A DNA stretch of 64,000 bases from Oscillospiraceae bacterium (GCA_963642615.1 CAVIHW010000003.1:6837-70836); one strand, 5' to 3'. Counted from the stretch's first letter, positions 8,498 through 55,982 are shown. Notes: a model not told the origin generated them from the letters alone. Program-made: numbers and translations.

Positions 8498-8570
8498 GCG
8501 CCTTTAGCTCAGTTGGTAGAGCAGTAGACTCTTAATCTATTTGTCCAGGGTTCGAGTCCCTGAAGGCGCA
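8498..8570 (+). tRNA. tRNA-Lys (anticodon CTT)
   Basis: Hand-folded cloverleaf: acceptor GCGCCTT/AAGGCGC, D arm GCTC-AGTTGGTA-GAGC, anticodon stem GTAGA/TCTAT with loop CTCTTAA, T arm CAGGG-TTCGAGT-CCCTG, discriminator A; no encoded CCA. Confidence 0.9.
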
Positions 8571-43895: not shown

Positions 43896-44240
43896 TCACT
43901 GTTTTTCGTATTCCCGGCTGAAGATCTCCTCAAACAGGGACCCCAGCTTCATGAGCTGCCTTGTGCAGTCCATAACAGTAAGACGGTAGTAGTTGGACGT
44001 GCCGGACTGGGTAACTTCGACTAGACCGCAGCTTTTCATGATCTTCAAATGATGGGAGATGGCCGGCCGTGACAGATTGGTCTGCCGGGTGATCTCGTTG
44101 ACATTCAGCCCATGCTCGTGTCCGTTCTGAGCGGCAATGCACAGTGCTTCAATGATATTTAAGCGGACCTCATCTCCGAAGGCGATAAACAGCGGCATAC
44201 AGCTGTGAAACAGTTCCTGTAGTTCTTTGGAGTCCGCCAT
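43896..44240 (-). CDS. ArsR/SmtB-family transcriptional regulator
   Basis: HTH LNVNEITRQTNLSRPAISHHLKIMKSCGLV; AGGAGG RBS before ATG 44240. Confidence 0.8.
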   Translation of the reverse strand: MADSKELQELFHSCMPLFIAFGDEVRLNIIEALCIAAQNGHEHGLNVNEITRQTNLSRPAISHHLKIMKSCGLVEVTQSGTSNYYRLTVMDCTRQLMKLGSLFEEIFSREYEKQ

Positions 44241-44390
44241 AAAAACCTCCTTTGGTTTAAAAAATTGAACTAAGACCATTCTATCACGAAACATTGGTAA
44301 CGTCAACCAAAAGAGAAAGCGAAAAACCAATGTTTTTCGTCAAAATGCTACAGCCCGCGCTTTTGGCACGGGCTGTACGGATGGATTGTT

Positions 44391-44648
44391 TTATTCATCA
44401 AAGTTTGTTTCAAAGACACCTTCCGGGGTTTTCATGGTAAGGATCCCCAGGTTGAAATTTTCATCGGAGATGGTGATATGGTATTCAAATATCACGTCTT
44501 CCTCAAATTTGGAGAGCACTATGTAATCTCCGTTTTCTTTTCCCTCGATCTGATCACAGATGTCATTGTAGACGGCCTCACCGGAGATTTCCCGCGGGTA
44601 GCCGGAGGATTTGATCTTTGCCTCAATGGCTTCATATAATTCGTTCAT
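44391..44648 (-). CDS. small acidic cytoplasmic protein, unknown function
   Basis: 85 aa from ATG 44648 (GGAAAGGAAG RBS); hairpin ACAGCCCG/CGGGCTGT downstream. Confidence 0.5.
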   Translation of the reverse strand: MNELYEAIEAKIKSSGYPREISGEAVYNDICDQIEGKENGDYIVLSKFEEDVIFEYHITISDENFNLGILTMKTPEGVFETNFDE

Positions 44649-44880
44649 GCAGCGAATACTTCCTTTCCTGGATCTGATGAATTTCAGTATAACATGATGC
44701 AGGCATCCTGTGCAACCGTGAGGCAGTTTGGCGAGATCATATTTGTCGAACACGGTCGTCTTATGCGGGCGTTCTTTCTTGACGCAGGGCGGATAGTCGA
44801 GTATGATAAGCCCACGATCAACGCGTCAGTCCGATGCGGATTTCAAGAGATGTTATTTCAGCCGGTTCGGCAGTATTTTC

Positions 44881-45432
44881 ATGATGAAGTGTAATGGTAT
44901 AAAAAGGTGGTGGTATCTCATAGGATATGAAAAGGGATATCTGGTACTGTGTGCAGGTCTTGCGGTCTGTGCCTGGACAGATTTCAAATTCGGGAAGGTG
45001 CAAAATGGCTGCCTGCTCTTTCTGGCATTTGCAGGTGCCCTGCACAATGGTGTGGATTTTTTTGCACCGGCGCTCATATTTTTGACAGTGGGAATGTGCC
45101 TGTTTCGATTTCGCGTCATGGGAGCAGGGGATGGTAAGCTGATGGCGGTGATTGGTGGTTATCTGGGCCTGACGGACGGGTTTTATGCCATCGCCCTTGG
45201 ATTTTTCACAGGGGCAGTCTGGAGCTTGTGGAAGATGAAACGGTATGGCATAGCGATGGAACGGTTTCATTATCTCCAGGAATATGCCAAGACAACCATA
45301 CAAACGGGGGTGATCAGACCCTATGATTCCTTACAACAGCCGAAGGCCTGGCATCATTTGCCCTTTGCAGTCTGTCTGGCAGCAGGGGTGATGGGATATC
45401 TGCTTTTATCGGGTTACAGCAAGATATTCTGA
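44881..45432 (+). CDS. A24-family prepilin peptidase (CpaA/TadV-like), paralogue 1
   Basis: Polytopic; both catalytic Asp contexts present (AWTDFKFGKV and MGAGDGKLM); start ATG 44881/44884 uncertain. Confidence 0.7.
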   Translation: MMKCNGIKRWWYLIGYEKGYLVLCAGLAVCAWTDFKFGKVQNGCLLFLAFAGALHNGVDFFAPALIFLTVGMCLFRFRVMGAGDGKLMAVIGGYLGLTDGFYAIALGFFTGAVWSLWKMKRYGIAMERFHYLQEYAKTTIQTGVIRPYDSLQQPKAWHHLPFAVCLAAGVMGYLLLSGYSKIF

Positions 45433-45476
45433 ATCGTTACTGAAATTGATGGGGAAAAGCTTCAAGGGGGAAGAAC

Positions 45477-46457
45477 ATGAAAAAGAGTATGGCAGTTTAT
45501 GATGCAGACTTTCGATATGCAGACCGTCTGGCGGAGTTTGCTAATCAGCGGGAACAGGTGCCGTTTCGGGCGGTGGCCTTTACCAGTCTCGAAAAATTGA
45601 AGGCCTTTTCACAGAGGGAATCCATTGACCTTCTGCTTGTCGGGGACAGTGTAAAACAAGAACAGCTGGAAGGGATCCCTGTGGGACAGACTGTGCGCCT
45701 TAGCCAGAATGGATTGGCAAAAGAGGGAGAGGCTGCAGTCTATAAGTACCAGTCCTCGGATAGTCTTTTGCGGGAGGTGATGTCCTGGTACCAGCCCAGG
45801 GAGATCCCCGCGCTTATGAGCGTGGCCGGACAAAGAAGCCGGATCATTGGCGTATACTCTCCCATCAGTCGCTGCGGAAAAACCGGATTTGCCCTGACTT
45901 TGGGGCAGATAAAGGCCAGGGAGGAAAAAGTGCTTTATATGACCTTGGAAGAATTTTCCGGTCTTGCGGCTCTGACCGGAACTGTGTATACAGGAGGTCT
46001 TTCGGATCTGCTTTATTACTACACCCAAAGAGAGTACAGTCCGGTAAGGCTTGGGAGCGTTACCTATCGTTTGGGCGACCTGGACTACATCGCACCGTTT
46101 ACCTATGCGGAAGATAAAAACGGGATCAGCCAGGATGTTTTTGCCGGACTGATCAGCCGGATCGCAGCGGATGGAACGTACGAGGAACTGATCGTGGATA
46201 TCGGTACCTTTTGCGGAGGCGCGGAAGAACTGCTTGGAATTTGTGATGTCATCTATGTGCCGATCAGGGAAGATGCAGTATCTGCGGCCAAACTGGAGGA
46301 ATGGAAGGAATACTTAAACCGCTCCGGACGCAGTGCGGTCTGGGAACGACTGCGTTTTTTAAAGCTTCCCAAACCGGAGCTTTGGCCGTCGCGAGAAACT
46401 TATCTGGAGCGGCTTATGTGGAGCGAACTGGGAGATTTTGTACGGGAGCTGAACTGA
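45477..46457 (+). CDS. TadZ/CpaE-like protein: receiver-like N-domain plus ParA/MinD-like domain with atypical P-loop
   Basis: IGVYSPISRCGKTGFALTLG (P-x4-GKT) and LIVDIG Walker-B-like; position immediately upstream of CpaF. Confidence 0.5.
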   Translation: MKKSMAVYDADFRYADRLAEFANQREQVPFRAVAFTSLEKLKAFSQRESIDLLLVGDSVKQEQLEGIPVGQTVRLSQNGLAKEGEAAVYKYQSSDSLLREVMSWYQPREIPALMSVAGQRSRIIGVYSPISRCGKTGFALTLGQIKAREEKVLYMTLEEFSGLAALTGTVYTGGLSDLLYYYTQREYSPVRLGSVTYRLGDLDYIAPFTYAEDKNGISQDVFAGLISRIAADGTYEELIVDIGTFCGGAEELLGICDVIYVPIREDAVSAAKLEEWKEYLNRSGRSAVWERLRFLKLPKPELWPSRETYLERLMWSELGDFVRELN

Positions 46458-46528
46458 TCGATCTGGATGGTGAGAGCGCAGGAGACGAAAAAATCCGGTG
46501 TCAAAAATGGAGAATCTATGAAAAGGAG

Positions 46529-47803
46529 ATGAAAGATCGGGTGGAGAACTCAGGGGAAGCAGGCGGGGCAAAAAGGCTGCTGGAGCAGCTTCGAAAAGAA
46601 GTGCGGGATGCACTTTGCGGATTTGACCAGATTGGAGATGAGGAATTATATGACTGCATTGATCAGGCGATCGCCGGTCATGCAGAAAATCAGTATCTGC
46701 CGCTTGGACAAAGAATCGAGCTGAAAAACAGGTTGTTTGACCGTTTTCGACGTCTGGATATTTTGCAGGAGCTGGTCGATGACCCGGAAGTGACAGAGAT
46801 CATGGTAAATGGGAAAGATCATATTTTTGTGGAACGGGCAGGGCGCCTGGAACGCTGGGCGCATGGATTTGAGCAGGTGGAACAGCTCGAGGATATGATC
46901 CAGCAGATTGTCAGCAAGATCAACCGGGTGGTGAATGTAAGCAGGCCGATTGCGGATGCAAGGCTTTTGGAAGATGGTTCCCGCGTTCATATCGTGCTGC
47001 CGCCGATCGCGTTAGACGGGCCGGTCGTAACGATCCGGAAATTTCCGGAGCCGATCACGATCGACCGACTGATCGGCTGTGGATCTCTGACAGAAGACGC
47101 AGCAGCTTTTTTGAAAAAAATGGTGCAGTCCGGCTACAACATTTTTATCAGCGGAGGAACGGGATCCGGAAAGACAACCTTTTTAAATGCATTATCGGCT
47201 TTTATTCCGGCCACCGAGCGGGTGATCACCATTGAAGACTCGGCAGAGCTTCAGATCCGGCAGATCCCGAACCTGGTGCGTTTAGAGACCCGATGCGCGA
47301 ATGCAGAGGGGGAGGGTGCAGTGGAGATCAGTGACCTCATCCGGGCATCCCTCCGTATGCGCCCCAATTATCTGATTGTCGGCGAGGTGCGGGGAAAAGA
47401 ATGCTTAGATATGCTGCAGGCACTGAATACCGGACATTTTGGCCTGTCGACCGGCCATGCAAACAGTGCCGGGGATATGCTTTCACGTCTGGAAACCATG
47501 ACCCTCATGGCAGCAGACATTCCTCTTACTGCCGTACGGGGACAGATCGCCTCGGCTATCGATATCCTGGTGCATTTAGGAAGACTGCGGGACAGAAGCC
47601 GACGTGTACTGGAGATCACGGAGGTTGTTGGATACGAAGGGGGTGAGATCCGTCTAAATCCGTTGTATCGATTTGAAGAAAGGGGGGATGCGGATGAGAA
47701 GGAGCATCAGCGTGAAGCTGCAGCAACCGTCTGCGGCAGTCTCATTAAAGTCGGAACCCTCAAAAAACAGGAAAAACTCCGGGCGGCCGGCTACAGCCTG
47801 TAA
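46529..47803 (+). CDS. CpaF/TadA-family type II/IV secretion ATPase
   Basis: Walker A ISGGTGSGKTTFLNAL, ITIEDSAEL, LIVGEVRGKE, GH..STGHANS; start uncertain (ATG 46529 or GTG 46541; ORF opens at 46301, overlapping the upstream gene). Confidence 0.9.
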   Translation: MKDRVENSGEAGGAKRLLEQLRKEVRDALCGFDQIGDEELYDCIDQAIAGHAENQYLPLGQRIELKNRLFDRFRRLDILQELVDDPEVTEIMVNGKDHIFVERAGRLERWAHGFEQVEQLEDMIQQIVSKINRVVNVSRPIADARLLEDGSRVHIVLPPIALDGPVVTIRKFPEPITIDRLIGCGSLTEDAAAFLKKMVQSGYNIFISGGTGSGKTTFLNALSAFIPATERVITIEDSAELQIRQIPNLVRLETRCANAEGEGAVEISDLIRASLRMRPNYLIVGEVRGKECLDMLQALNTGHFGLSTGHANSAGDMLSRLETMTLMAADIPLTAVRGQIASAIDILVHLGRLRDRSRRVLEITEVVGYEGGEIRLNPLYRFEERGDADEKEHQREAAATVCGSLIKVGTLKKQEKLRAAGYSL

Positions 47804-47837
47804 GCAGCCGATCTGCTATGACAGCTATCACCTTACC

Positions 47838-48551
47838 ATGCAGGAAACCATGCTTGCTCTTGGAAAAGGTGTGGTCGTGAGTGCTGTGTTTTCCTATGTT
47901 TTTTACCGAAGCATGATGGCGTTTGGAATCATGATTTTCCCGGGCTGCTTTATGCTGCTTTTTCGGGAACGAAGGAAACGCCTGAAACAACAAAAGCGAA
48001 TGCTTGCACAGCAGTTTAAAGAAGCCATGGTGATCCTCGCGGCATCCTTAAGTGCGGGCTACGCCATGGAAAATGCCATGGCGGTGAGCCTGGAAGAACT
48101 GCGACTGCTTTATGGGGAACAGGGACTGATCGTCCGGGAGTTTTCCGGCATGGTGCAGCAGATCCGGACAAACCGGAATGTGGAGCAGGTGCTGATGGAA
48201 TTTGCAAAGCGCAGTGGACTTGAAGACGTACAAAACCTGGCGGAGGTTCTTAGTATCGGAAAGCGGACGGGAGGTGATCTTGGCAGCATCATGCGCCATA
48301 CGGCGGAGGTGATCCGGGATAAGATGCAGGTTAAGGAAGAAATCATCACCCTGACGGCATCCCGCCAGTTTGAGCAGAAAATTATGAATCTGATCCCGTT
48401 TTTTATCATCTTCTATGTGGAAGGCACCTCACCGGGCTTTTTTGACCAGATGTACTGCACGGGAATGGGAAGGGGGCTGATGACCATGTGCCTGATGCTG
48501 TATCTGGCAGCCTTTTGGCTTTCGGAACGGATCCTGGAGATCGAGGTGTGA
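47838..48551 (+). CDS. T2SS-F-family platform protein (TadB-like)
   Basis: 237 aa from ATG 47838; TM - cytoplasmic helical domain - two C-terminal TMs. Confidence 0.7.
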   Translation: MQETMLALGKGVVVSAVFSYVFYRSMMAFGIMIFPGCFMLLFRERRKRLKQQKRMLAQQFKEAMVILAASLSAGYAMENAMAVSLEELRLLYGEQGLIVREFSGMVQQIRTNRNVEQVLMEFAKRSGLEDVQNLAEVLSIGKRTGGDLGSIMRHTAEVIRDKMQVKEEIITLTASRQFEQKIMNLIPFFIIFYVEGTSPGFFDQMYCTGMGRGLMTMCLMLYLAAFWLSERILEIEV

Positions 48552-48553
48552 TC

Positions 48554-49807
48554 ATGAACGGGGAAAAACGCATAAAAAACAGCACAAAGGACAATAAGAC
48601 ACAAACAAACAGCAAGATCCTGGCAGCGGTCTGTGTGGGAATCAGCGTACTTTTATGGGTTTACCTGAGCTTCTTTTGGAAAGACGCAGATCCGGATCTT
48701 TTGGCCGGTCTGGTGGAGCGTGAGAGTTATGGCGGCAACCTGAAGGAACAGGAGCTTCTGGTGCATGGTCTTGGCGAAAAAGAGCAGGCAGTAACCGTGA
48801 AGGTGAGTCCCCGGGTGTATACAAAAGAAGAAGCGGATGATGTGTTTTACGCAGCCATAGAACAGCTGGGAGAACAGATCCTGGGAGAGAACGAAAGTCT
48901 GAAAACGGTCACTTCAGACCTTGTACTGCCAACGTATCTGAAAGAAAGCGGGGTGCAGATCCGCTGGCATTCCTCCGAGCCGGATGTAATGTCTTCCTCT
49001 GGAACGATTGTGGCAGAGGTGGAGAAAAAACAGGAGCTTTTTTTACAGGCAGAGCTTCGAACCGGAGATTACCGGGCAGACTATGAGATACCGGTCACCC
49101 TGGTTCCGAAGGCACGCAGCCCGGAACAGGAACTTTTGCGGGCATTTACCGATGAAGTGACGAGACTTGATGTGCAGCAGAAAAACGAAGCATATCTGAA
49201 GCTCCCTGACAGCTACCGGGGAAAAACACTTTCCTATCAAAATGCGGAAAAACAAAATTATAATGTGATCCTGCTTCTTGGATTTGTGATGGCAGCACTC
49301 CTTTTTTTGCGGGAGGATTCACAGCAAAAAGAGCAGGAAAAGAAGCGTGAGCGAATGCTTTTATTAGACTATGCCGAGGTGGTTTCCAAACTCCAGGTAC
49401 TGGTGGGAGCAGGAATGACCGTGCGCAATGCCTGGGGGCGCATGGTACATGATTATGAGGCATCGGGGCTAAAAACAGAACGGCCTGCCTATGAAGAAAT
49501 GCGCCAGACCTATTATCAGATGGAAAATGGAACGGCAGAAGGAGTTTCATTTCGCGAATTTGGCAGAAGATGCCGTTTGCAGCCTTATTTAAAGCTAAGC
49601 AGTATTCTGGAGCAGAACCGGAAAACAGGAACAAAAAACTTGCGTGAACTTTTGCGCACAGAGGTGGAGGATGCTTTTGAAATGCGAAAAAACCTTGCCC
49701 GGAGAATGGGGGAGGAGGCCGGAACGAAGCTTTTGATCCCGTTGTTCATGCTTTTGTTTATTGTCATGATATTTATCATGGTACCGGCCATGATGACCAT
49801 GGGTTGA
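48554..49807 (+). CDS. T2SS-F-family platform protein (TadC-like) with about 200-aa extracytoplasmic N-terminal insert
   Basis: ATG 48554, 2 nt after the TadB-like stop; TM1, soluble segment, TM2, T2SSF-like helical domain, C-terminal TM. Confidence 0.65.
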   Translation: MNGEKRIKNSTKDNKTQTNSKILAAVCVGISVLLWVYLSFFWKDADPDLLAGLVERESYGGNLKEQELLVHGLGEKEQAVTVKVSPRVYTKEEADDVFYAAIEQLGEQILGENESLKTVTSDLVLPTYLKESGVQIRWHSSEPDVMSSSGTIVAEVEKKQELFLQAELRTGDYRADYEIPVTLVPKARSPEQELLRAFTDEVTRLDVQQKNEAYLKLPDSYRGKTLSYQNAEKQNYNVILLLGFVMAALLFLREDSQQKEQEKKRERMLLLDYAEVVSKLQVLVGAGMTVRNAWGRMVHDYEASGLKTERPAYEEMRQTYYQMENGTAEGVSFREFGRRCRLQPYLKLSSILEQNRKTGTKNLRELLRTEVEDAFEMRKNLARRMGEEAGTKLLIPLFMLLFIVMIFIMVPAMMTMG

Positions 49808-49851
49808 CCACGGTATAGCGTTGTATATGGATATCAAAGGAGGAAACGTTT

Positions 49852-50058
49852 ATGAGATGGATGAGAAACCTGAAAAATAATGATTGTGTCAAAGAATGGA
49901 CTGCTTTCTGGAACAATGAACAGGGAGTCGGTGTGATCGAGGTCGTGTTGATCCTGGTAGTTTTGATCGGTCTGGTGATCATTTTTAAGACACAGATCCG
50001 GAAATTGCTGGAAAACATTTTCAAGGAGATCGAGACGCAGTCTAAAGAAGTGTATTGA
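49852..50058 (+). CDS. Flp-type (type IVb) prepilin
   Basis: 68 aa; leader then NEQG|VGVIEVVLILVVLIGLVIIF with Glu at +5 of the predicted mature end; AGGAGG RBS. Confidence 0.7.
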   Translation: MRWMRNLKNNDCVKEWTAFWNNEQGVGVIEVVLILVVLIGLVIIFKTQIRKLLENIFKEIETQSKEVY

Positions 50059-50061
50059 CCT

Positions 50062-52002
50062 ATGACCGAAAAAAGAAACCTAAGCGGCCAGGTGACCGTG
50101 TTTGTCAGCATGATCTTAATGATCCTGTTTGCCTTTCTGTGCGTGCTTCTGGAATCGGCACGCACAGCCGGTGCAAGGTGGTATCTGCAGATGGCAGCTT
50201 CCTCTGCCCTGGATTCGGTCTTTGGTCAATATCATAAGGATCTGTGGGAGAACTATCGCCTGCTGTTTGCGGAATATGCCGGTGCAGAGGAGGTAGAGGC
50301 AGATTTCTCCGGATTTCTTACCCCGTATCTTGAGACGGACAACTGGTATCCCATGGCTTTGGAACAGGTGCAGGCTGACGAAATCGTGCGGGTTGTTGAT
50401 GGTCACGGAGCATATCTGGAAAAAGAGATCCTGGATTATATGAAATACGGAATCTGGAACCTGGATTTTCAGGGGGATGCGGTGAACCAGTTGTGGGATC
50501 AGGATCGGGAAGCAGAGGCAGTCACCGAAATGGCCGAAACCTACCGGAACCGGACAAAGGACATGTGGAAGCTGGAAAAAATCCTGGAATCTATCAGCAA
50601 AAATCTGGAGGATGAGAAGAAGGATCAGGAGAATGGCCTTCGTGCATTATCTTCTTATGACGGAGAAGGATTCCGGCGTGCAGCAAAACAGATGATCCGT
50701 GATTTAAAAAAGATGCCGGGGCTGGTGGAAAACTATGAAAAAGAGGCAGATAAGCTGGCTGCCGTCCTGGTATCTGACCGGAAGGCACAGGAGGCCAGAC
50801 AGGATCGTCTGAGTTCGGAAACTGCAGAGGCTCTGGATCGGGAAATCCGGGAGTACGAGGCTTATATTGCAGAAGACGGAAAGCGCAGGCGAGAAATAAA
50901 AAATCTGGATCCCTGGTCGGAAGCAGCAATCAGCAGGCTTGAAGAGCTGATCGAAGAATCCTATGAGGTAGAGCGGGAAATCGAGGAGTGGGAGGATGAC
51001 GACGATGAAGATGATGACAGTGAACCGGATTATGAGAGTTTATGGAGACCGGTGCGAAATGGCCTGACAAATATCACAATCCCGGCTCTGTCTTTTGTGC
51101 ATGGTGTCAAGGACAAGGAAACAGAAGGACTTTTAAAACAGGTGGAACAGCTTTATAAGCAAGGCCTGTTAAAACTTCTGGTACCGGAGGGGAAAAACAT
51201 CTCAAAAAAAACAGTGGAGACTGCGCCGCTGCCTTCGCACTCAGAACGTTATGCGGAAGATGGAGGAAGCGGCACTATGGCAGATCACATCCTGATCAAT
51301 GAATATGCCGGGGAGTTTTTCAGACAGTTTTGTACGGAAGAAACATCTGCAACGTCTGCACTGGATTATGAAATGGAATATTTGATCTGCGGAAATGCGA
51401 ACGATGAAGATAATTTAAGTGAGGTGGTACATCAGCTGCTGGCGGTGAGAGCCGGGTTGAACCTGATCCATATTCTTCGGGATACTGCTATGAGAGAAGA
51501 GGCCAGAACACTTGCAGGTGTGATCACGGGTGCGGCAGCCATAACACCGCTTGTTTTTGCGACAACATTTTTTGTCATGTCTGTATGGGCACTGGGTGAG
51601 GCACTGATGGATGTAAAGGGGCTTCTTGCTGGAAGAAAGGTGGAACTGATCAAACAAAAGGACGACTGGACGCTGAGCATGGAAAATCTCATTCTTATGG
51701 CAAAGAACGGGAAACCGGAGGCCGGCGGAGGAGATCATGGGCTTTCCTATCTGTCTTGGCTGAAGATTTTACTGTTTGTGACGCCACTGGTTCGTCAGGA
51801 TTACCGGATGATGGATGTGATCGAGCTGAACCTGGCACAGGGAAAAAGCGGATTTCGTATGCATAACGCGGTGTATCAGGTGCAGATCTCGGGAGAAGTT
51901 TGTGGAAAACATCTCTTTTTCTCGCCTGCTTTTGTGGAAAATATAACCGGAAACCGTGACAACACAATGCAGATGCAATTCCATAGTGAACGCCGCTATT
52001 AG
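50062..52002 (+). CDS. large membrane-anchored pilus-associated protein (TadE/TadG-like N-terminus, acidic coiled-coil centre)
   Basis: N-terminus NLSGQVTVFVSMILMILFAFLCVLLESAR; central charged helices with EEWEDDDDEDDDSEPDYE; C-terminal YEMEYLICG...LNLIHIL region with hydrophobic helix. Confidence 0.5.
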   Translation: MTEKRNLSGQVTVFVSMILMILFAFLCVLLESARTAGARWYLQMAASSALDSVFGQYHKDLWENYRLLFAEYAGAEEVEADFSGFLTPYLETDNWYPMALEQVQADEIVRVVDGHGAYLEKEILDYMKYGIWNLDFQGDAVNQLWDQDREAEAVTEMAETYRNRTKDMWKLEKILESISKNLEDEKKDQENGLRALSSYDGEGFRRAAKQMIRDLKKMPGLVENYEKEADKLAAVLVSDRKAQEARQDRLSSETAEALDREIREYEAYIAEDGKRRREIKNLDPWSEAAISRLEELIEESYEVEREIEEWEDDDDEDDDSEPDYESLWRPVRNGLTNITIPALSFVHGVKDKETEGLLKQVEQLYKQGLLKLLVPEGKNISKKTVETAPLPSHSERYAEDGGSGTMADHILINEYAGEFFRQFCTEETSATSALDYEMEYLICGNANDEDNLSEVVHQLLAVRAGLNLIHILRDTAMREEARTLAGVITGAAAITPLVFATTFFVMSVWALGEALMDVKGLLAGRKVELIKQKDDWTLSMENLILMAKNGKPEAGGGDHGLSYLSWLKILLFVTPLVRQDYRMMDVIELNLAQGKSGFRMHNAVYQVQISGEVCGKHLFFSPAFVENITGNRDNTMQMQFHSERRY

Positions 52003-52050
52003 ATTAGAAAAAGTTTGATCCCAACAACAAAGGAAAGGAGGTGAAAAGGA

Positions 52051-53064
52051 ATGCCCTGCTGGCAGAAAATAAAAAACCGAAAAACAAAAATAAATACCAG
52101 TGTACCTCTCCAAGTACGAAGCCCATATATCCTACAAAACCTGAGTCTGTTTCAAAAAAGAACGCGCAAATCGGTCAGCAGGGTATTCCCTTTCACCTCC
52201 CCAAATACGGATCGCCTTTCGCTTTTATGCACTGCACAAACGGGAACAGGTCGCACCCTGAGTGCATCTATGACCATAGAGGCAGCATTTACGCTTTCTC
52301 TTTTGATCTTTGCATCGCTCATTTTGATGCTTCCTGCGAAAGTCATGATGACAGAACGGAAAATGCAGGCGGGGTTGGAGGCAGCAGGAGAGGATCTGAG
52401 TCAGTTTGCCTATCTGCTTGACAGTATCAGGAACGGGAAAACGGAAAATGTCACGAGTGCAGGGGAAGCGGACAAAGCACTCAGCCTTTATGCCGAGGAG
52501 GTGGCGGCTCCGCTTTATGCCCGGACAAAGGCTTTATCTTACTGCGATACAGATCAGATATCTCATGTCAGTATGCTGAAATCATCGATCCGTAAGGATG
52601 AGGAGATCCTGGATCTTGTGATGGAATACGATATTTCCATGCCCTTTCCGGTACTTGGCCTTCCTCCTTTGCACCGGACGATCCGCTGCAGACGCAGATG
52701 CTGGACTGGACGTGAAGGACGTTATGGAGAGAATGCCGAGGCGCAAAGTGAGGAGGAACAGATTGTCTATGTGGGAAAAAACAGCACACGTTACCATCCG
52801 GACAGAAGCTGCCATTATCTGGAAAACCATTTGCTGGCGGTTGCGTGGGATAGTATCGACGGGCAGCGCAATACCAGCGGCGGTAAATATTATCCGTGTT
52901 CTTCCTGTGCAAAGAATACCAAAAAAGGAAGCACGGTTTATATTGCAGCCAGTGGAAGCCGTTACCATAGCAGGCAGGACTGTAAGGCGATCATGGCATA
53001 TGCGCGGGCGGTAAAACTGAAAGATGTAAAGTATTTGGGCGCGTGCTCCTATTGCGGAGGATGA
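52051..53064 (+). CDS. TadE-like pseudopilin with long basic leader and two C-terminal Cys/His modules
   Basis: AAGGAGGTG RBS 9 nt before ATG 52051; SASMTIEAAFTLSLLIFASLILM at residues 71-93; two YH-x4-C ... C-x2-C modules at residues 238-335. Confidence 0.6.
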   Translation: MPCWQKIKNRKTKINTSVPLQVRSPYILQNLSLFQKRTRKSVSRVFPFTSPNTDRLSLLCTAQTGTGRTLSASMTIEAAFTLSLLIFASLILMLPAKVMMTERKMQAGLEAAGEDLSQFAYLLDSIRNGKTENVTSAGEADKALSLYAEEVAAPLYARTKALSYCDTDQISHVSMLKSSIRKDEEILDLVMEYDISMPFPVLGLPPLHRTIRCRRRCWTGREGRYGENAEAQSEEEQIVYVGKNSTRYHPDRSCHYLENHLLAVAWDSIDGQRNTSGGKYYPCSSCAKNTKKGSTVYIAASGSRYHSRQDCKAIMAYARAVKLKDVKYLGACSYCGG

Positions 53065-53648
53065 GATTGGATATGGTTTCCCGGGAAGTGGGTTGTGTTG
53101 CGATACGATTTGGGATTTTTCTGATGTTTGCTTTGGCAGCATCCTGGCAGGATTATAAAACCAGACAGGTAAATGTCCGGCTGTTTTTGGTATTTGGAGT
53201 GGTCGGTCTTTTCCTCTGTCTTGGAAGCCAGATCCAAATGGCTTTCCATGCAGAAAATACAGAAGGTGTCCGGTTTTACCCGGAACTTCTTTGGAACATC
53301 TTTTGTTCCATCCTGCTTGGAATGCTGCCGGGAGCAGCTCTTTTCCTGTTTTCCCGGTGTGGAGGCGGGATCGGAGAAGGAGACTGCCTGTTTTTCCTGC
53401 TCTGTGGCTGGTACCTGAACATTTGGGATACCTGTTTTTTGCTGGGTGTGTCTGTCTTTTTATGTGGATTTGTGGGACTTGTCTATTACGTGGCGGGCTG
53501 TAGACATGGGAGCTTAGAAAGCCGGAAACGTGGGAAAACACAGTGGCCGTTTCTTCCGTTTACTGTCTTGCCGGGATCATGGATTGCCATGATGCGGTTA
53601 AGCGAGGTTATTCGGATGATGGCTGTTTCGGAAAGGGGGAGCTTATGA
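53061..53648 (+). CDS. A24-family prepilin peptidase-like protein, paralogue 2
   Basis: ATGA stop/start overlap with the upstream gene; Asp contexts SWQDYKTRQV and GIGEGDCLFF; polytopic. Confidence 0.6.
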   Translation: MRLDMVSREVGCVAIRFGIFLMFALAASWQDYKTRQVNVRLFLVFGVVGLFLCLGSQIQMAFHAENTEGVRFYPELLWNIFCSILLGMLPGAALFLFSRCGGGIGEGDCLFFLLCGWYLNIWDTCFLLGVSVFLCGFVGLVYYVAGCRHGSLESRKRGKTQWPFLPFTVLPGSWIAMMRLSEVIRMMAVSERGSL

Positions 53649-53975
53649 ATGAAGCAGAAAGTCGGATTCTTTGAAAAAGGAAAAAAGTGTTTGCAAGCCA
53701 GCATTACGGTTGAGGCGGCCGGAATCATGTCCATTGTGCTCCTTACGATCATGGTGCTGTTAGGACAGGCCATGCGCTGGAGCAGTCGGACAGCAGGAAT
53801 GTTTGTGCTGCATGAGGAAATTGAGAGAAAACGGCATCTGATCGAGTCTGCAGAGGAGGCAAAAGTAAAAGAACAGGCTTATGGAAGCGGATGGGATCTG
53901 GAAATTTCAGCACCGGTATTCCGACCGGAAAAAGCCATGAGAAGGTGGAGTCTGGTGGAGGATGGGACAAAATGA
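53649..53975 (+). CDS. TadE-like pseudopilin
   Basis: 108 aa; CLQA|SITVEAAGIMSIVLLTIMVLL, Glu at +5; ATG directly follows the upstream TGA. Confidence 0.65.
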   Translation: MKQKVGFFEKGKKCLQASITVEAAGIMSIVLLTIMVLLGQAMRWSSRTAGMFVLHEEIERKRHLIESAEEAKVKEQAYGSGWDLEISAPVFRPEKAMRRWSLVEDGTK

Positions 53976-55207
53976 ACATTAGTTATCAGCGGGAAATGAA
54001 ACGAAATTACCTGATCATTGAGGCCGAGGTGCAGGGTGAGGTGCCGTTTGAACAGATCATGATGGAACAGAATCCGATCGATGGGGTGCTCCATTTTCAG
54101 GTAAGGGAAAAAGATACGGATATCCGTTATTTTTACGAGATCACATCAAAACAGCCGTTGTCCCGTCTTCTGGAGGGACAGTCGATCCGTGCAGCCCAGA
54201 TCCGTGCGCTGGTGTGGGGGATCGCACAGGCACTCGATCATATGGAGGCATATCTGTTAAGTGAAAATAGTGTACTTTTAACCCCGGATTATCTGTATGT
54301 GGAGCCGGAAAACCTGAAAGTGTGGCTGTGCGTGATCCCCGGGCTGGAACGTGATTTTCCGGAAGATTACAGCCGCTTTCTGGAATATTTATTGGGAAAG
54401 GTCGATCATAAGGATAAAGAGTCTGTGGTTCTGGCCTATGGCCTGTATCAGGAAACCAGAAAAGAAAACTATGGTATGCGGGATATTCTCCGGCTCGCGC
54501 AGAAGCTTCAGGACGGAAATGACACAGAAAGGGATCCGGATATGGAGGATCAGCCGGGAGTGCAGCAGTCGTATGAAACCAATGAACCGGAAGAAACACT
54601 GCGAGTCAGTCAGACACAGGCAAATGCCGTGCGGGAAACGGGAAGCCTGTTTGGCCGCTGGAAACAGCGCAGGAAGGTGCGCAAAGAAGAAAAACAGCGC
54701 GAACTGGAACGAGAGATGCAGATGCCATGGGAGTCGATCTTTGCCGGGGAAACACAGTCGGACTATGGCACGGCTGTTTCCCGGCCAGAGGAAAAAGGCA
54801 GGGTGCGCGAAAATCCAAGCCATCCAGAAAAGCGAAACAGTGCACCTGTGGATTCCCGCGCAAAGCAGGGAAATGGCACGGTGCTTTTGAATCCCCAAAA
54901 GAATGATCATGGAACAGGAGTGCGAAAACTAAAGGCGTTAGATGCCGGTGAGACGGATATAGAGATCGCATATTATCCGTTTATTATAGGAAAGCAGGAA
55001 AATCTGGTAGATTATGTACTGGATCGCGAGACGGTCAGCCGTCTGCATCTGCGCATTGACCAGAAAGAAGAGCATTATTATGTGCAGGATCTGAATTCCA
55101 CAAACGGAACCGAAGTGGATGGCCGTATGCTGGAAAATAACGAAACAATTGAGATCCGGGAAGGAACTGATATAAGCATAGCAGGGATCCGATATCGGTT
55201 TTTATGA
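53972..55207 (+). CDS. FHA-domain protein with uncharacterised N-terminal domain
   Basis: ATGA overlap with the TadE-like gene, GGAGGATG RBS; C-terminal FHA (IGKQ...VSRLHLRI...VQDLNSTNGTEVDG). Confidence 0.8.
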   Translation: MNISYQREMKRNYLIIEAEVQGEVPFEQIMMEQNPIDGVLHFQVREKDTDIRYFYEITSKQPLSRLLEGQSIRAAQIRALVWGIAQALDHMEAYLLSENSVLLTPDYLYVEPENLKVWLCVIPGLERDFPEDYSRFLEYLLGKVDHKDKESVVLAYGLYQETRKENYGMRDILRLAQKLQDGNDTERDPDMEDQPGVQQSYETNEPEETLRVSQTQANAVRETGSLFGRWKQRRKVRKEEKQRELEREMQMPWESIFAGETQSDYGTAVSRPEEKGRVRENPSHPEKRNSAPVDSRAKQGNGTVLLNPQKNDHGTGVRKLKALDAGETDIEIAYYPFIIGKQENLVDYVLDRETVSRLHLRIDQKEEHYYVQDLNSTNGTEVDGRMLENNETIEIREGTDISIAGIRYRFL

Positions 55208-55334
55208 GTACCGGTAACAAAAACGGGGATTTTGTACATGGATTTTTCGGCTAAGACACAGTAAAATAGATCATGGAAACGGTTCGGCAGAATTGGAACG
55301 TATGCAATCTATCGTTGCACAGAACGGAGTTTAC

Positions 55335-55982
55335 ATGAACGAATATCAGAATCCTTATTATATGGTGCCGCAGCGTCGGCCCCGTGCCTGGGTGAACAAT
55401 ACGCTCATTGTTTTAAATATCCTGTATTTTCTTTATCTGGAGCTTTTGGGATCCACGGAAGATGCGTACTTTATGCTGGAGCATGGAGCGATGTACGGTC
55501 CGTTTATCCTGGAAAATCATGAGTATTACCGTCTTCTGACAGCCATGTTTATGCACTTTGGCATCAACCATATTGTGAATAACATGCTGGTTTTATTTGT
55601 GCTTGGAGATAATCTGGAGCGGGCACTGGGAAAGGTGAAGTATCTGCTCTTTTATCTGATCTGCGGAGTAGCAGCCAATGCAGTCTCGCTGCTGTTTGAA
55701 ATGCCGAAAAGTGACTGGTCAGTGGGAGCCGGAGCTTCCGGTGCTGTTTTTGGTGTAGTTGGCGGCCTGATCTATGTGGTGGCTGTCAACAAAGGCCGGC
55801 TGGAAGATTTAAATAGCAGACAGCTGGTTGTGATGGCTGCTTTTTCCCTGTATCTGGGATTTACCAGCACCGGAGTGGATAACACCGCCCACGTGGCAGG
55901 TCTGATCATCGGAATCATCCTGGCAGTCATTTTATACCGCAAACCAAAGCGTGCTTGCAGAGCGGATATTTGGAGTGTATAA
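55335..55982 (+). CDS. rhomboid-family intramembrane serine protease
   Basis: HFGINHIVNN, GASGAVFGVVGG (catalytic Ser) and AHVAGLIIG (catalytic His). Confidence 0.85.
   Translation: MNEYQNPYYMVPQRRPRAWVNNTLIVLNILYFLYLELLGSTEDAYFMLEHGAMYGPFILENHEYYRLLTAMFMHFGINHIVNNMLVLFVLGDNLERALGKVKYLLFYLICGVAANAVSLLFEMPKSDWSVGAGASGAVFGVVGGLIYVVAVNKGRLEDLNSRQLVVMAAFSLYLGFTSTGVDNTAHVAGLIIGIILAVILYRKPKRACRADIWSV

What the first reader, a model, noticed from the sequence alone, without database searches (positions are those of the whole stretch)
44881..55982. Monoderm Tad/Flp-type pilus cluster with a non-canonical accessory set (best candidate for an under-described system)
Seen: twelve co-directional genes with very small gaps or overlapping stop/start codons. 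They are an A24 peptidase, a TadZ/CpaE-like P-loop protein, a CpaF/TadA ATPase (GGTGSGKTT, LIVGEVRG) and two T2SS-F platform proteins. These are followed by a 68-aa Flp-like prepilin (NEQG|VGVIEV..., Glu at +5; 43-aa predicted mature peptide), a 646-aa membrane-anchored protein and two TadE-like pseudopilins. The cluster also has a second A24-like peptidase, an FHA protein and a rhomboid protease. No secretin (RcpA/CpaC), TadD or RcpB-type genes are present, which fits a single-membrane host. Established: Tad/Flp machines are defined in Aggregatibacter, Caulobacter (Cpa), Bifidobacterium breve and Micrococcus luteus. Inference: the core is a recognisable Tad machine. The duplicated peptidase, the Cys/His-module pseudopilin, the coupled FHA protein, the platform-protein ectodomain and the rhomboid are not part of the canonical parts list. 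This looks like a distinct Clostridia-type variant whose role (adhesion, DNA uptake, other) is open.
Basis: partly seen in the sequence, partly recalled or inferred. Interest (0 to 1): 0.72.

Follow-up and report, generated by a model that had tools for sequence, protein, structure and literature searches.

The report
Lachnospiraceae Tad/Flp pilus gene cluster
This is a real, well-conserved gene cluster for a thin Tad/Flp-type surface pilus in a gut Clostridia (Lachnospiraceae) bacterium; it is a known kind of machine, but it carries a fixed set of extra, uncharacterised parts that nobody has tested experimentally.

Summary
Window 44881-55207 carries eleven tightly packed co-directional genes. 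They encode a TadV-like A24 peptidase, a TadZ-like protein, a CpaF ATPase, and two single-domain T2SSF platform proteins, one with an Ig-like ectodomain. Then come a 68-aa Flp1_like prepilin (G|VGVIE), a TadG-like DUF5702 protein and a 337-aa pilin-like protein ending in two His/Cys3 modules. The last three are a second A24 peptidase, a 108-aa pilin-like protein and a cytoplasmic DUF6382-FHA protein.

Gene order and content are conserved in about 160 related loci (CpaF down to 56-61% identity, the Cys/His protein down to 25-36%).

Three corrections apply:
- The rhomboid is only a frequent neighbour (81/119 loci). It is sometimes deleted or displaced.
- The "TadE-like" calls have no profile support. 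They rest on a conserved [AG]|S-x-T-V-E-A-A motif and a predicted pilin-like fold.
- Several "novel" parts are already Pfam families (Flp1_like, DUF5702, DUF6382, TadZ-like_ARD). Clostridial tad-like loci were catalogued in 2011 and 2019.

The undescribed parts are the Cys/His modular pilin family (no Pfam; more than 1,700 cluster representatives), the paired peptidases, and DUF6382-FHA in a Tad context. Verdict: a new variant of a known kind, of moderate interest.

The parts
44881..45432 (+). g1: TadV-type prepilin peptidase. It has the A24 domain only, with no N-terminal extension.
   Evidence: Peptidase_A24, E 3.5e-10. Both catalytic Asp residues (D34 and G-x-G-D84) are invariant in 97/97 homologues. 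An A24 gene lies upstream of CpaF in 91/96 loci.
45477..46457 (+). g2: TadZ/CpaE-like protein with an atypical receiver domain plus a degenerate P-loop domain.
   Evidence: TadZ-like_ARD, E 0.0026, sub-threshold. PDB 3fkq, E 2.7e-5 over residues 1-243. The motif S-P-x-x-R-C-[G/L]-K-[T/S] is conserved, but the Gly is present in only 59/102. Found upstream of CpaF in 93/96 loci.
46529..47803 (+). g3: CpaF/TadA motor ATPase. The ORF is open from 46301. The likely start is 46529, behind an AAGGAG site.
   Evidence: T2SSE, E 1e-51. Best NCBIfam match is the TadA-family model TIGR03819, E 9e-81, 271.7 bits, which is below that model's 373-bit cut-off. Caulobacter CpaF 8rkd/9e24, E 1.7e-81, ahead of archaeal FlaI. 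Start.
47694..48551 (+). g4: TadB-like platform protein with one T2SSF domain. Start uncertain (47673-47850).
   Evidence: T2SSF, E 2.8e-5, 24.5 bits against a 25.2-bit cut-off. hhalign against the g5 family: E 2e-5 over 106 columns. Two T2SSF genes lie between CpaF and g8 in 104/104 loci.
48554..49807 (+). g5: TadC-like platform protein. Predicted layout is TM1, then an extracytoplasmic domain of about 190 aa with an Ig-like fold, then TM2, the T2SSF domain and TM3.
   Evidence: aBig_2, E 9e-8, and T2SSF 25.5 bits. Hydropathy predicts TM segments at residues 23-41, 235-253 and 394-412. Full-length conservation, ectodomain included, in 79/80 genome loci. aBig_2 is also called in the distant locus L165.
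49852..50058 (+). g6: Flp1_like major prepilin. 68 aa, 25-aa leader, cleavage G|VGVIEV, 43-aa mature peptide.
   Evidence: Flp1_like, E 4.9e-22; Flp_Fap, E 3e-5. AGGAGG ribosome-binding site. Gly at -1 in 90/92 and Glu at +5 in 92/92 unique homologue windows. Position +6 is Val/Ile, not Tyr.
50062..52002 (+). g7: TadG-like membrane-anchored protein. It has an N-terminal G-Q-I-T-V-F hydrophobic anchor, a coiled/acidic middle part and a C-terminal DUF5702.
   Evidence: DUF5702, E 3e-78. Weak PF13400 'Tad' hit on the N-terminus, E 0.08, below the cut-off. N-terminal motif conserved in 64 unique sequences. TM segment at residues 11-29. Present in 103/104 loci. No PDB relative.
52051..53064 (+). 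g8: candidate modular minor pilin. It has a basic leader of about 70 aa, the site [AG]|S-[LM]-T-[LIV]-E-A-A, a TM helix, a small alpha/beta pilin-like module and two C-terminal His/Cys3 (Y-H-x4-C...C-x2-C) modules.
   Evidence: No Pfam, NCBIfam or PDB relative. H249, C254, C283, C286, H306, C311, C332 and C335 are invariant in 23 homologues down to 24% identity. AF2 model. AGGAGG ribosome-binding site at the start. The family has 4681 representatives at E<=1e-3 and 1741 at E<=1e-30.
53073..53648 (+). g9: second A24 prepilin peptidase, sitting between the two pilin-like genes. The start lies between 53043 and 53073.
   Evidence: Peptidase_A24, E 5.5e-6. D37 is invariant in 131/131 and G-x-G-D114 in 130/131. 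Only about 15% identical to the g1 family (hhalign E 6e-10). Found between g8 and g11 in at least 129/137 loci. It stays with the pilin module in L081, L163 and L164 and in the P0106 contig.
53649..53975 (+). g10: small candidate minor pilin (108 aa) with a short basic leader and the site [AG]|S-Y/I-T-V-E-A-A.
   Evidence: No profile hit. Motif conserved. The N-terminal 30 columns align with the g8 family (hhalign probability 95.6%, E 1e-8). Found between g8 and g11 in 136/137 loci.
53972..55207 (+). g11: cytoplasmic DUF6382-FHA protein. [quoted passage not shown]
   Evidence: DUF6382, E 1e-51; FHA, E 2e-14. No TM segment. AF2 model: residues 1-181 and 318-411 are confident, the linker is disordered. 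Foldseek FHA hits at E 1e-7. Found downstream of g8 in 122/122 loci.
55293..55982 (+). g12: rhomboid protease. A conserved neighbour; membership of the system is doubtful.
   Evidence: Rhomboid, E 5e-37. An 85-127 nt gap follows g11. Directly after g11 in 81/119 loci. Deleted in L018 and L039, and 6.6 kb away in L085 and L088. Always found with HIT and MurG.
43896..44330 (-). Divergent ArsR-family HTH regulator. A conserved upstream neighbour and possible local regulator; not shown to be one.
   Evidence: HTH_5, E 1e-11. Homologue present upstream in most loci that reach far enough, at 47-90% identity.

Best explanation
Window 44881-55207 is an operon-like cluster for a single-membrane Tad/Flp (type IVc) pilus of a Lachnospiraceae bacterium. 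It is built from a canonical core plus a lineage-wide fixed accessory set.

Proposed working; the parts are shown by the evidence, the roles are inferred:
- The 68-aa Flp1_like prepilin inserts in the membrane and is cut after Gly25 by an A24 aspartyl peptidase.
- The CpaF hexamer, docked on the TadB/TadC platform and positioned by the TadZ-like protein, polymerises the 43-aa pilin into a thin filament.
- The Ig-like ectodomain of TadC and the TadG-like DUF5702 protein provide the extracytoplasmic part of the machine in a cell that has no secretin.
- g10 and g8 are minor pilins that prime or cap the filament. g8 is a 'modular pilin' whose two extracellular His/Cys3 (probably zinc) modules would be displayed at the tip as the ligand-binding end.
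- The two old A24 paralogues probably split the work. One would cut the major pilin, which has an acidic E-E-D-G| site. The other, encoded between g8 and g10, would cut the minor pilins, which have a basic K/R-L-x-[AG]| site.
- The cytoplasmic DUF6382-FHA protein is a scaffold or regulator that couples assembly to a partner protein, possibly through phosphothreonine.

The most likely role is adhesion and colonisation in the gut, by analogy with Bifidobacterium breve Tad pili. The rhomboid is most likely just a neighbour.
For: - Core identity: profile and PDB matches for A24, TadZ-like, CpaF, two T2SSF proteins and Flp.
- Pilin signatures are conserved: Flp has Gly at -1 in 90/92 and Glu at +5 in 92/92. 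g10 and g8 carry [AG]|S-x-T-V-E-A-A.
- The g8 AF2 model has a long N-terminal helix and a small sheet, followed by two confident small modules.
- The g8 leader has 13 Lys/Arg against 1 Asp/Glu, which puts the C-terminus outside the cell (read from the sequence).
- Both peptidases keep both catalytic Asp residues in all or nearly all homologues.
- Co-conservation: the best 80 of 148 matching stretches from the species-representative genome collection (CpaF 61-92% identity), plus 80 metagenome loci anchored on g8 (36-72% identity), keep the same order. Counts are two T2SSF 104/104, Flp 104/104, DUF5702 103/104, g10 136/137, second A24 at least 129/137 and FHA 122/122. More distant loci L165 and L166 show the same order.
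- Tight spacing and overlapping stops and starts from g2 to g11.
- The context is chromosomal and housekeeping, with no composition break.
- Precedents: minimal monoderm Tad machines (PMC6916266) and FHA proteins in the Tad-like Kil system (PMC8460266).
Against: - Nothing here shows expression or a filament.
- g8 and g10 have no profile similarity to TadE/TadF. The T2SSF and TadZ matches sit at or below the Pfam cut-offs.
- The g8 leader of about 70 aa is far longer than known class III leaders, so g8 may stay uncleaved as a bitopic membrane protein.
- The FHA domain has Lys (121/127) where the phosphate-binding Arg normally sits, and no kinase or phosphatase is in the cluster.
- The peptidase division of labour, the tip location of g8, zinc binding and the adhesion role are all inferences.
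- In L081 the pilin module stands without CpaF, TadB or TadC within 21 kb.
- The loci compared are related to one another, so the counts are not independent events.
Confidence: 0.75

Rival explanations
1. The machine is a DNA-uptake (competence) pilus, as the Tad-type pili of Micrococcus luteus are. The His/Cys3 modules of g8 would be the DNA receptor at the filament tip.
For: - Tad-type pili are needed for transformation in M. luteus (PMC6916266).
- g8 carries two invariant H-x4-C...C-x2-C modules that look like small zinc-binding domains. Small zinc modules often bind nucleic acids; this last point is general knowledge and was not tested here.
Against: - The g8 modules have no detectable similarity to any DNA-binding family or solved structure.
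- No ComEA, ComEC or DprA-type gene appears in the cluster or among the neighbours scanned.
- I found no report of natural transformation linked to this locus.
Confidence: 0.12
2. The cluster makes a short pseudopilus that pushes proteins across the wall, like a type II secretion piston, or acts as a signalling or contact device like the Myxococcus Kil system. It would not make a long adhesive filament. DUF6382-FHA would be the contact-signalling input.
For: - FHA proteins are over-represented in the contact-triggered Tad-like Kil system (PMC8460266).
- DUF6382-FHA proteins (TseJ/TsfJ) belong to secretion machines, the T7SSe and T7SSf variants (PMC11217815).
- The large accessory proteins g7 and g8 have unknown functions.
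Against: - The major subunit is a typical, very highly conserved Flp-type pilin.
- No candidate substrate or toxin genes were seen among the cluster genes or conserved neighbours.
- The ATPase is closest to the pilus motor CpaF.
Confidence: 0.08
3. The accessory genes (second peptidase, g8, g10, DUF6382-FHA, rhomboid) are merely syntenic neighbours that travel with the Tad core by vertical descent. They would have no role in it.
For: - All loci sampled come from one bacterial family and share the same chromosomal position, ArsR ... rhomboid-HIT-MurG. Co-occurrence could therefore partly reflect shared ancestry.
- For the rhomboid this reading is the better one (81/119, with deletions and a 6.6-kb displacement).
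Against: - g8 to g11 overlap or abut each other and g7.
- g8 and g10 carry prepilin-type sites, and g9 is a prepilin peptidase with intact catalytic residues. They are functionally tied to a type IV filament by their own sequences.
- Flp, DUF5702, g8, A24, g10 and FHA stay together as a block even where the ATPase block is not adjacent (L081).
- They also stay together across mobile-element insertions.
Confidence: 0.05

Closest known systems
Canonical Tad/Flp (type IVc) pilus of Aggregatibacter actinomycetemcomitans and Caulobacter crescentus (Cpa)
   Same: - CpaF/TadA motor (E 1.7e-81 to Caulobacter CpaF).
- Two single-domain platform paralogues.
- TadZ-like protein.
- Short TadV-type A24 peptidase.
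- Small Flp pilin with G|xxxxE.
- Pilin-like minor subunits and a TadG-like anchored protein.
   Different: - No secretin, TadD, RcpB or RcpC.
- The Flp lacks Tyr at +6 and matches Pfam Flp1_like better than Flp_Fap.
- Two peptidases sit in one operon.
- TadC has an Ig-like ectodomain.
- The minor pilins have no TadE/TadF profile similarity.
- One minor pilin has two His/Cys3 modules.
- A DUF6382-FHA protein is present.
Monoderm Tad pili of Bifidobacterium breve and Micrococcus luteus (Pelicic 2019, PMC6916266)
   Same: A secretin-less minimal machine: pilin, two minor pilins, peptidase, two platform proteins, ATPase, and TadZ and/or TadG. A gut-colonisation role is known for B. breve.
   Different: - Those are Actinobacteria.
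- In B. breve the peptidase is encoded elsewhere and is single.
- None of these is described there: a DUF5702 protein, a Cys/His modular pilin, an FHA protein or a TadC ectodomain.
Clostridial tad-like loci catalogued by Imam et al. 2011 (PMC3244431), including C. bolteae
   Same: - Same bacterial group. The Enterocloster bolteae locus L056 has this cluster.
[quoted passage not shown]
- I did not confirm that L056 is one of the four C. bolteae tad loci counted in that paper.
   Different: One group of those loci, including one in C. bolteae, was reported to lack any protein with a prepilin motif. Here the Flp1_like pilin and two further prepilin-type proteins are clear and conserved.
TseJ/TsfJ (DUF6382-FHA) of type VII secretion variants T7SSe/T7SSf (Garrett & Palmer 2024, PMC11217815)
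   Same: The same two-domain architecture, with DUF6382 at the N-terminus and FHA at the C-terminus. It is predicted to be cytoplasmic and is encoded inside an envelope-machine operon of Bacillota.
   Different: - Here it sits in a Tad cluster with no EssC or WXG100 genes nearby.
- Homology is at family level only.
- Its function is unknown in both contexts.
Modular type IV pilins of Streptococcus sanguinis (PilB, PilC). This comparison is from my own knowledge and was not retrieved here.
   Same: The concept is the same: a pilin module with an extra functional module grafted at the C-terminus, displayed by the filament.
   Different: - Those belong to type IVa pili.
- Their modules are vWA and lectin folds.
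- The g8 modules are small His/Cys3 units with no known relative, and g8 has an unusually long leader.
Myxococcus xanthus Kil Tad-like apparatus (PMC8460266)
   Same: A Tad-derived machine with associated FHA-domain proteins.
   Different: - It is diderm, with a secretin.
- Its FHA is fused to the ATPase.
- It is split between two clusters.
- It has a predatory function.
- DUF6382 is not reported there.

Membership tests
Tad/Flp (type IVc) pilus system | CpaF/TadA-clade secretion ATPase | tested here: met
   T2SSE, E 1e-51. Best NCBIfam match is the TadA-family model TIGR03819 (E 9e-81, below that model's own cut-off). Best PDB hits are Caulobacter CpaF, E 1.7e-81, ahead of FlaI and VirB11.
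Tad/Flp (type IVc) pilus system | Two paralogous platform proteins, each with a single T2SSF domain (TadB and TadC) | tested here: met
   g4 scores 24.5 bits and g5 25.5 bits against a 25.2-bit cut-off, which is marginal. The two families align with each other at hhalign E 2e-5. Both are present in 104/104 loci.
Tad/Flp (type IVc) pilus system | Very small Flp-type major pilin with a G|xxxxE-Y site and a Flp motif | tested here: met
   Flp1_like, E 4.9e-22, and Flp_Fap, E 3e-5 (below the Flp_Fap cut-off). 43-aa mature peptide. Gly at -1 in 90/92 and Glu at +5 in 92/92. The Tyr at +6 is not met (Val/Ile). This matches the 'Flp-like' class of Gram-positives in PMC3244431.
Tad/Flp (type IVc) pilus system | Short TadV-type A24 peptidase with two catalytic Asp residues and no N-terminal extra domain | tested here: met
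   g1 (183 aa) and g9 (about 190 aa) both match Peptidase_A24 only. The Asp pairs are invariant.
Tad/Flp (type IVc) pilus system | TadZ/CpaE (atypical receiver domain plus ParA/MinD-like domain) | tested here: inconclusive
   The receiver-domain hit is below the cut-off (E 0.0026). The PDB 3fkq hit, E 2.7e-5, spans both domains. The C-terminal half has no Pfam hit. The P-loop is degenerate.
Tad/Flp (type IVc) pilus system | TadE/TadF pseudopilins (PF07811 TadE family) | tested here: not met
   g8 and g10 have no Pfam or NCBIfam hit at E<=10. Only a prepilin-type motif and a pilin-like predicted fold support a pseudopilin role.
Tad/Flp (type IVc) pilus system | Outer-membrane parts (RcpA secretin, RcpB, TadD) and RcpC | tested here: not met
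   None of the twelve proteins matches these families. This is expected for a single-membrane host and is also true of the B. breve system.
Type IV prepilins (class III signal peptide) - g8 and g10 | Short basic leader, G/A at -1, Glu at +5, followed by a hydrophobic helix | tested here: inconclusive
   g10 meets all four features. g8 meets the site and the helix, but its leader is about 70 aa. Cleavage itself cannot be tested with these tools.
FHA domain (phosphothreonine reader) - g11 | Conserved G-R, S-x-x-H and N-G phosphopeptide-binding residues | tested here: inconclusive
   The fold is confirmed (Foldseek E 1e-7). Ser, His and Asn are conserved, but the Arg is replaced by Lys in 121/127.
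T7SSe/f accessory protein TseJ/TsfJ | DUF6382 + FHA architecture encoded next to EssC-type ATPase and WXG100 genes | tested here: not met
   The architecture is met. No T7SS gene appears in the cluster or flanks. It is therefore the same protein family in a different system.

The most novel reading that the evidence does not exclude
This Lachnospiraceae Tad variant would be a distinct sub-type with three features.
1. Two dedicated prepilin peptidases process major and minor pilins separately.
2. The filament is capped by a previously unrecognised, very widespread family of modular minor pilins. Their twin His/Cys3 zinc modules would be the ligand receptor, for DNA, glycan or host protein.
3. 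Assembly is gated by a DUF6382-FHA adaptor. This would be the same module that type VII secretion variants use, making it a shared regulatory plug-in for unrelated envelope machines of Bacillota.
Probability: 0.2. Interest if true: 0.62.

Novelty: new variant of a known kind. Interest (0 to 1): 0.42.

Why it matters
- Lachnospiraceae are dominant human gut commensals. How they attach and persist is poorly understood.
- In Bifidobacterium, Tad pili decide gut colonisation. A pilin from another uncultured gut Clostridia clade has been linked to immunotherapy response (PMC11680825).
- This cluster gives a concrete, conserved parts list for a Gram-positive Tad machine in cultivable species such as Hungatella hathewayi, Enterocloster bolteae and Lacrimispora.
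- It bears on an open question raised in the field review (PMC6916266): what holds the type IVc assembly complex together, and what replaces the outer-membrane parts, in single-membrane cells. The candidates here are the TadC ectodomain, the DUF5702 protein and DUF6382-FHA.
- It also flags a large family with no Pfam model (the g8 Cys/His pilin-like proteins; 1,741 cluster representatives at E<=1e-30) that deserves a family definition.

Tried and rejected
- **Plasmid or phage origin.** There was no plasmid match for the 11-kb region. The only 'phage' hits are unverified faecal contigs, and the one examined, MT835706.1, is a bacterial contig with this same cluster.
- **Classifying the g8 Cys/His modules.** Pfam and NCBIfam at E<=10, a PDB profile search, Foldseek of the AF2 model and tblastn against plasmids all gave nothing significant. 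My recalled resemblance to Ada-type zinc modules was not supported by any tool and is dropped.
- **Classifying the DUF6382 fold.** The PDB profile search hit only the FHA part. The Foldseek top 50 were all FHA matches, so the N-terminal domain could not be read out. A pseudokinase (EssB-like) idea remains untested.
- **Regulatory RNA upstream of g1.** Rfam found none. Promoter and terminator scans are at chance level.
- **Apparent absence of g1-g5 in some loci (L085, L119, L131, L161).** This comes from mobile-element insertions that push those genes out of the fetched flank. It is not real loss.
- **First metagenome scan.** The scan with the full g8 alignment failed for lack of a conserved stretch. 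It was repeated with a narrower alignment.
- **Xu et al. 2012 (TadZ of E. rectale).** The paper could not be read because it is not held.
- **Depth of sampling.** The homologue lists for g7 and g11 showed only close relatives (47% identity or more). Deep sampling of those families was therefore not possible.

Full report
**What is in the sequence**

Between 44881 and 55982 there are twelve co-directional ORFs on the + strand. Profile searches give the following:

| Gene | Coordinates | Best matches |
|---|---|---|
| g1 | 44881-45432 | Peptidase_A24, E 3.5e-10 |
| g2 | 45477-46457 | TadZ-like_ARD, E 0.0026, below cut-off |
| g3 | ORF from 46301 | T2SSE, E 1e-51 |
| g4 | to 48551 | T2SSF, 24.5 bits (cut-off 25.2) |
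| g5 | 48554-49807 | aBig_2, E 9e-8; T2SSF, 25.5 bits |
| g6 | 49852-50058 | Flp1_like, E 4.9e-22; Flp_Fap, E 3e-5 |
| g7 | 50062-52002 | DUF5702, E 3e-78 |
| g8 | 52051-53064 | nothing |
| g9 | to 53648 | Peptidase_A24, E 5.5e-6 |
| g10 | 53649-53975 | nothing |
| g11 | to 55207 | DUF6382, E 1e-51; FHA, E 2e-14 |
| g12 | 55293-55982 | Rhomboid, E 5e-37 |

The best NCBIfam match for g3 is a TadA-family ATPase model, below that model's own cut-off. NCBIfam names nothing else in g1-g10. Sequence searches of solved structures add two points. g3 is closest to Caulobacter CpaF (E 1.7e-81), ahead of archaeal FlaI. g2 is closest to entry 3fkq (E 2.7e-5, both domains). I recall 3fkq as TadZ of Eubacterium rectale, itself a Lachnospiraceae; I could not read that paper.

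Start codons supported by ribosome-binding sites put g2 to g11 at -4 to 71 nt from each other. g12 follows after 85-127 nt. The flanks are an ArsR-type regulator (minus strand), glycogen-metabolism genes, a HIT protein and MurG. The rest of the window is ordinary chromosome, including V-type ATPase, cell-wall enzymes and sugar-acid metabolism, with no composition break.

**Pilin-type features**

Across 92 distinct homologue windows the site is ...F..E-E-D-G|V-G-V-I-E-V-V-L-I-L-V-V-L-I-G-L-V-I-I-F-K. Gly at -1 occurs in 90/92 and Glu at +5 in 92/92. Position +6 is Val/Ile, not Tyr. This is the 'Flp-like' class that Imam et al. noted in Gram-positives.

g10 and its relatives have a short basic leader and [AG]|S-Y/I-T-V-E-A-A followed by a hydrophobic helix. 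g8 and its relatives have [AG]|S-[LM]-T-[LIV]-E-A-A. The two families align over these 30 columns (hhalign probability 95.6%, E 1e-8). Neither hits the TadE family or any other model, even at E<=10. Calling them pseudopilins is therefore an inference from the motif and from the predicted fold.

The AlphaFold2 model of g8 has mean pLDDT 72.6. It shows:
- a disordered leader (residues 1-69);
- a long N-terminal helix (73-127);
- a second helix and a three-to-four-stranded sheet (to 216);
- two small, confident modules at 237-290 and 295-337.

Each small module carries an invariant Y-H-x4-C...C-x2-C set (H249, C254, C283, C286 and H306, C311, C332, C335).

The g8 leader is unusual. It is about 70 aa long, with 13 Lys/Arg against 1 Asp/Glu. 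A conserved M-P-F...V-[T/P]-L-Q-V-R motif and an AGGAGG site in front of the ATG at 52051 both show that it is translated. The charge bias places the Cys/His modules outside the cell.

g7 starts with a conserved G-Q-I-T-V-F hydrophobic anchor. This gives only a weak, sub-threshold match to the Pfam TadE/G-like 'Tad' motif (E 0.08).

**The other accessories**

Both A24 proteins keep the two catalytic aspartates: g1 in 97/97 homologues, g9 in 131/131 and 130/131. The two families are only about 15% identical (hhalign E 6e-10). They are old paralogues, not a recent duplicate.

g5 has a predicted layout of TM1, an ectodomain of about 190 aa with an Ig-like aBig_2 match, TM2, the T2SSF domain and TM3. 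The ectodomain is conserved in the related loci.

g11 has no membrane segment. Its model has a confident N-terminal domain (1-181), a disordered linker and an FHA domain (318-411). Foldseek confirms the FHA fold (E about 1e-7), but these hits crowded out any match for the N-terminal domain. The FHA keeps the Ser, His and Asn of the phosphopeptide site. It has Lys instead of the canonical Arg in 121/127 homologues. Phosphothreonine binding is therefore uncertain.

**Conservation**

A scan of one genome per species with CpaF found 148 matching stretches. The best 80 were kept, all from Lachnospiraceae such as Lacrimispora, Hungatella, Enterocloster, Ventrimonas and Brotaphodocola, at 61-92% CpaF identity. 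A metagenome scan anchored on g8 returned 80 more loci at 36-72% identity. tblastn and iterated profile searches on these loci gave the following:

| Feature | Loci |
|---|---|
| Two T2SSF genes between CpaF and g8 | 104/104 |
| Flp between CpaF and g8 | 104/104 |
| DUF5702 between CpaF and g8 | 103/104 |
| g10-like gene between g8 and g11 | 136/137 |
| A24 gene between g8 and g11 | at least 129/137 |
| DUF6382-FHA downstream of g8 | 122/122 |
| TadZ-like gene upstream of CpaF | 93/96 |
| A24 gene upstream of CpaF | 91/96 |

Five of the eight loci that miss the A24 gene between g8 and g11 still have it by tblastn. More distant loci show the same order (L165, with g8 at about 31-36% identity, and L166, with CpaF at 56%). 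These loci are related to one another, so the counts are not independent events.

The g8 family is large. A profile search of 1.84 billion cluster representatives gave 4,681 hits at E<=1e-3 and 1,741 at E<=1e-30. The best 150 were nearly all full-length, about 300 aa. None of the homologues retrieved has a Pfam domain or an informative name.

**The rhomboid**

The rhomboid follows g11 directly in only 81/119 loci. It is absent in L018 and L039, where HIT follows g11 directly. It lies 6.6 kb away in L085 and L088. Where present it always comes with HIT and MurG, even in the most distant loci. The simplest reading is conserved chromosomal neighbourhood, not membership. A role cannot be excluded.

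**Mechanism**

The parts are shown; the roles are inferred. I read this as a functional single-membrane Tad/type IVc pilus.
- CpaF, TadB/TadC and the TadZ-like protein polymerise the processed 43-aa Flp.
- g10 and g8 prime or cap the filament. g8 acts as a 'modular pilin' that displays two probable zinc modules.
- g7 and the TadC ectodomain provide the extracytoplasmic part in a cell without a secretin.
- g11 acts as a cytoplasmic adaptor.

The two peptidases probably divide the substrates. The Flp site is acidic (E-E-D-G|) and the minor-pilin sites are basic (K/R-L-x-[AG]|). In addition, g9 is encoded between g8 and g10 and stays with the pilin block when the block stands apart from the motor genes (L081). 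Adhesion and gut colonisation is the default role by analogy with B. breve. DNA uptake, as in M. luteus, and a secretion or contact device, as in Myxococcus Kil, are the rivals.

**Relation to what is known**

Tad operons were reported as widespread in Clostridia in 2011. One group, which included a C. bolteae locus, was described as lacking any prepilin. The E. bolteae locus examined here (L056) has three prepilin-type genes, but I did not establish that it is the same locus as in that paper. The 2019 survey of type IV filaments again listed new Tad systems in Clostridia. The monoderm review gives a minimal parts list (pilin, two minor pilins, peptidase, two platforms, ATPase, TadZ or TadG) and asks what holds the complex together.

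In the library searched, DUF6382-FHA proteins appear only as TseJ/TsfJ of the T7SSe and T7SSf variants. The same paper notes Tad genes next to other T7SS variants and a TadZ-like domain in TsfV. None of these sources describes, for a Tad system, the Cys/His pilin family, the paired peptidases, the TadC ectodomain or DUF6382-FHA. I found no experimental work on this variant.

**Verdict**

The core is ordinary and correctly recognised. The accessory set is real, conserved and largely uncharacterised, with one part (the rhomboid) probably not belonging. This is a new variant of a known kind. It is of moderate interest, mainly as a tractable model for Gram-positive Tad assembly and for Lachnospiraceae adhesion in the gut. 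It also identifies a large pilin-like family that has no Pfam model.

Noticed in passing
L085:1986-7900, L119:1771-7700 (also L131, L143, L161); L088:1-5290 and L093:1-4600: A mobile element carrying three tyrosine recombinases in a row plus DUF6262 genes (recombinase-in-trio type) sits inside the flp gene of several related loci. It always breaks the coding sequence just before V-V-L-I-G-L. Copies whose proteins are 98-100% identical for the three recombinases and 89% for the adjacent DUF6262 protein occur in two different species (L085, L119). A related trio (32-43% identical) lies next to a truncated cpaF in L088 and L093. This suggests site-specific targeting, or repeated knock-out, of this pilus locus.
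   Followed up: partly
L166 (GenBank MT835706.1, 'UNVERIFIED: Bacteriophage sp.'): This record in the phage collection is a bacterial contig. It carries the same Tad cluster (CpaF 56% identity) followed by rhomboid, HIT and MurG. It is not a phage genome.
   Followed up: yes
L081:8094-19506: In a distant relative (g8 25% identical) the block Flp1_like-DUF5702-g8-A24-small protein-DUF6382/FHA-rhomboid-HIT-MurG is intact. The first A24 and the TadZ-like gene lie inverted downstream. No CpaF, TadB or TadC lies within 21 kb. The locus is either split or decaying.
   Followed up: partly
window 52051-52260 (g8 leader): There is a basic leader of about 70 aa with a conserved M-P-F...V-[T/P]-L-Q-V-R-[I/S]-P motif ahead of a prepilin-type site. 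It is much longer than known type IV pilin leaders, and its function is unknown.
   Followed up: partly
L001 and L002 (CAVALB010000069.1 'uncultured Selenomonadales'; CAVIRL010000037.1 'Prevotella sp. P5-108'): The two loci closest to the window (CpaF 92% and 88%) sit in genome bins labelled Selenomonadales and Prevotella. All other relatives are Lachnospiraceae, so these contigs are probably mis-binned.
   Followed up: no
window 8498-8570: This is a single tRNA gene, the only Rfam match at gathering threshold in the 64-kb window.
   Followed up: no
window 44391-44753 (- strand): This 120-aa ORF with no Pfam match lies between the ArsR gene and g1. It is conserved only in the closest relatives (10 loci).
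   Followed up: no
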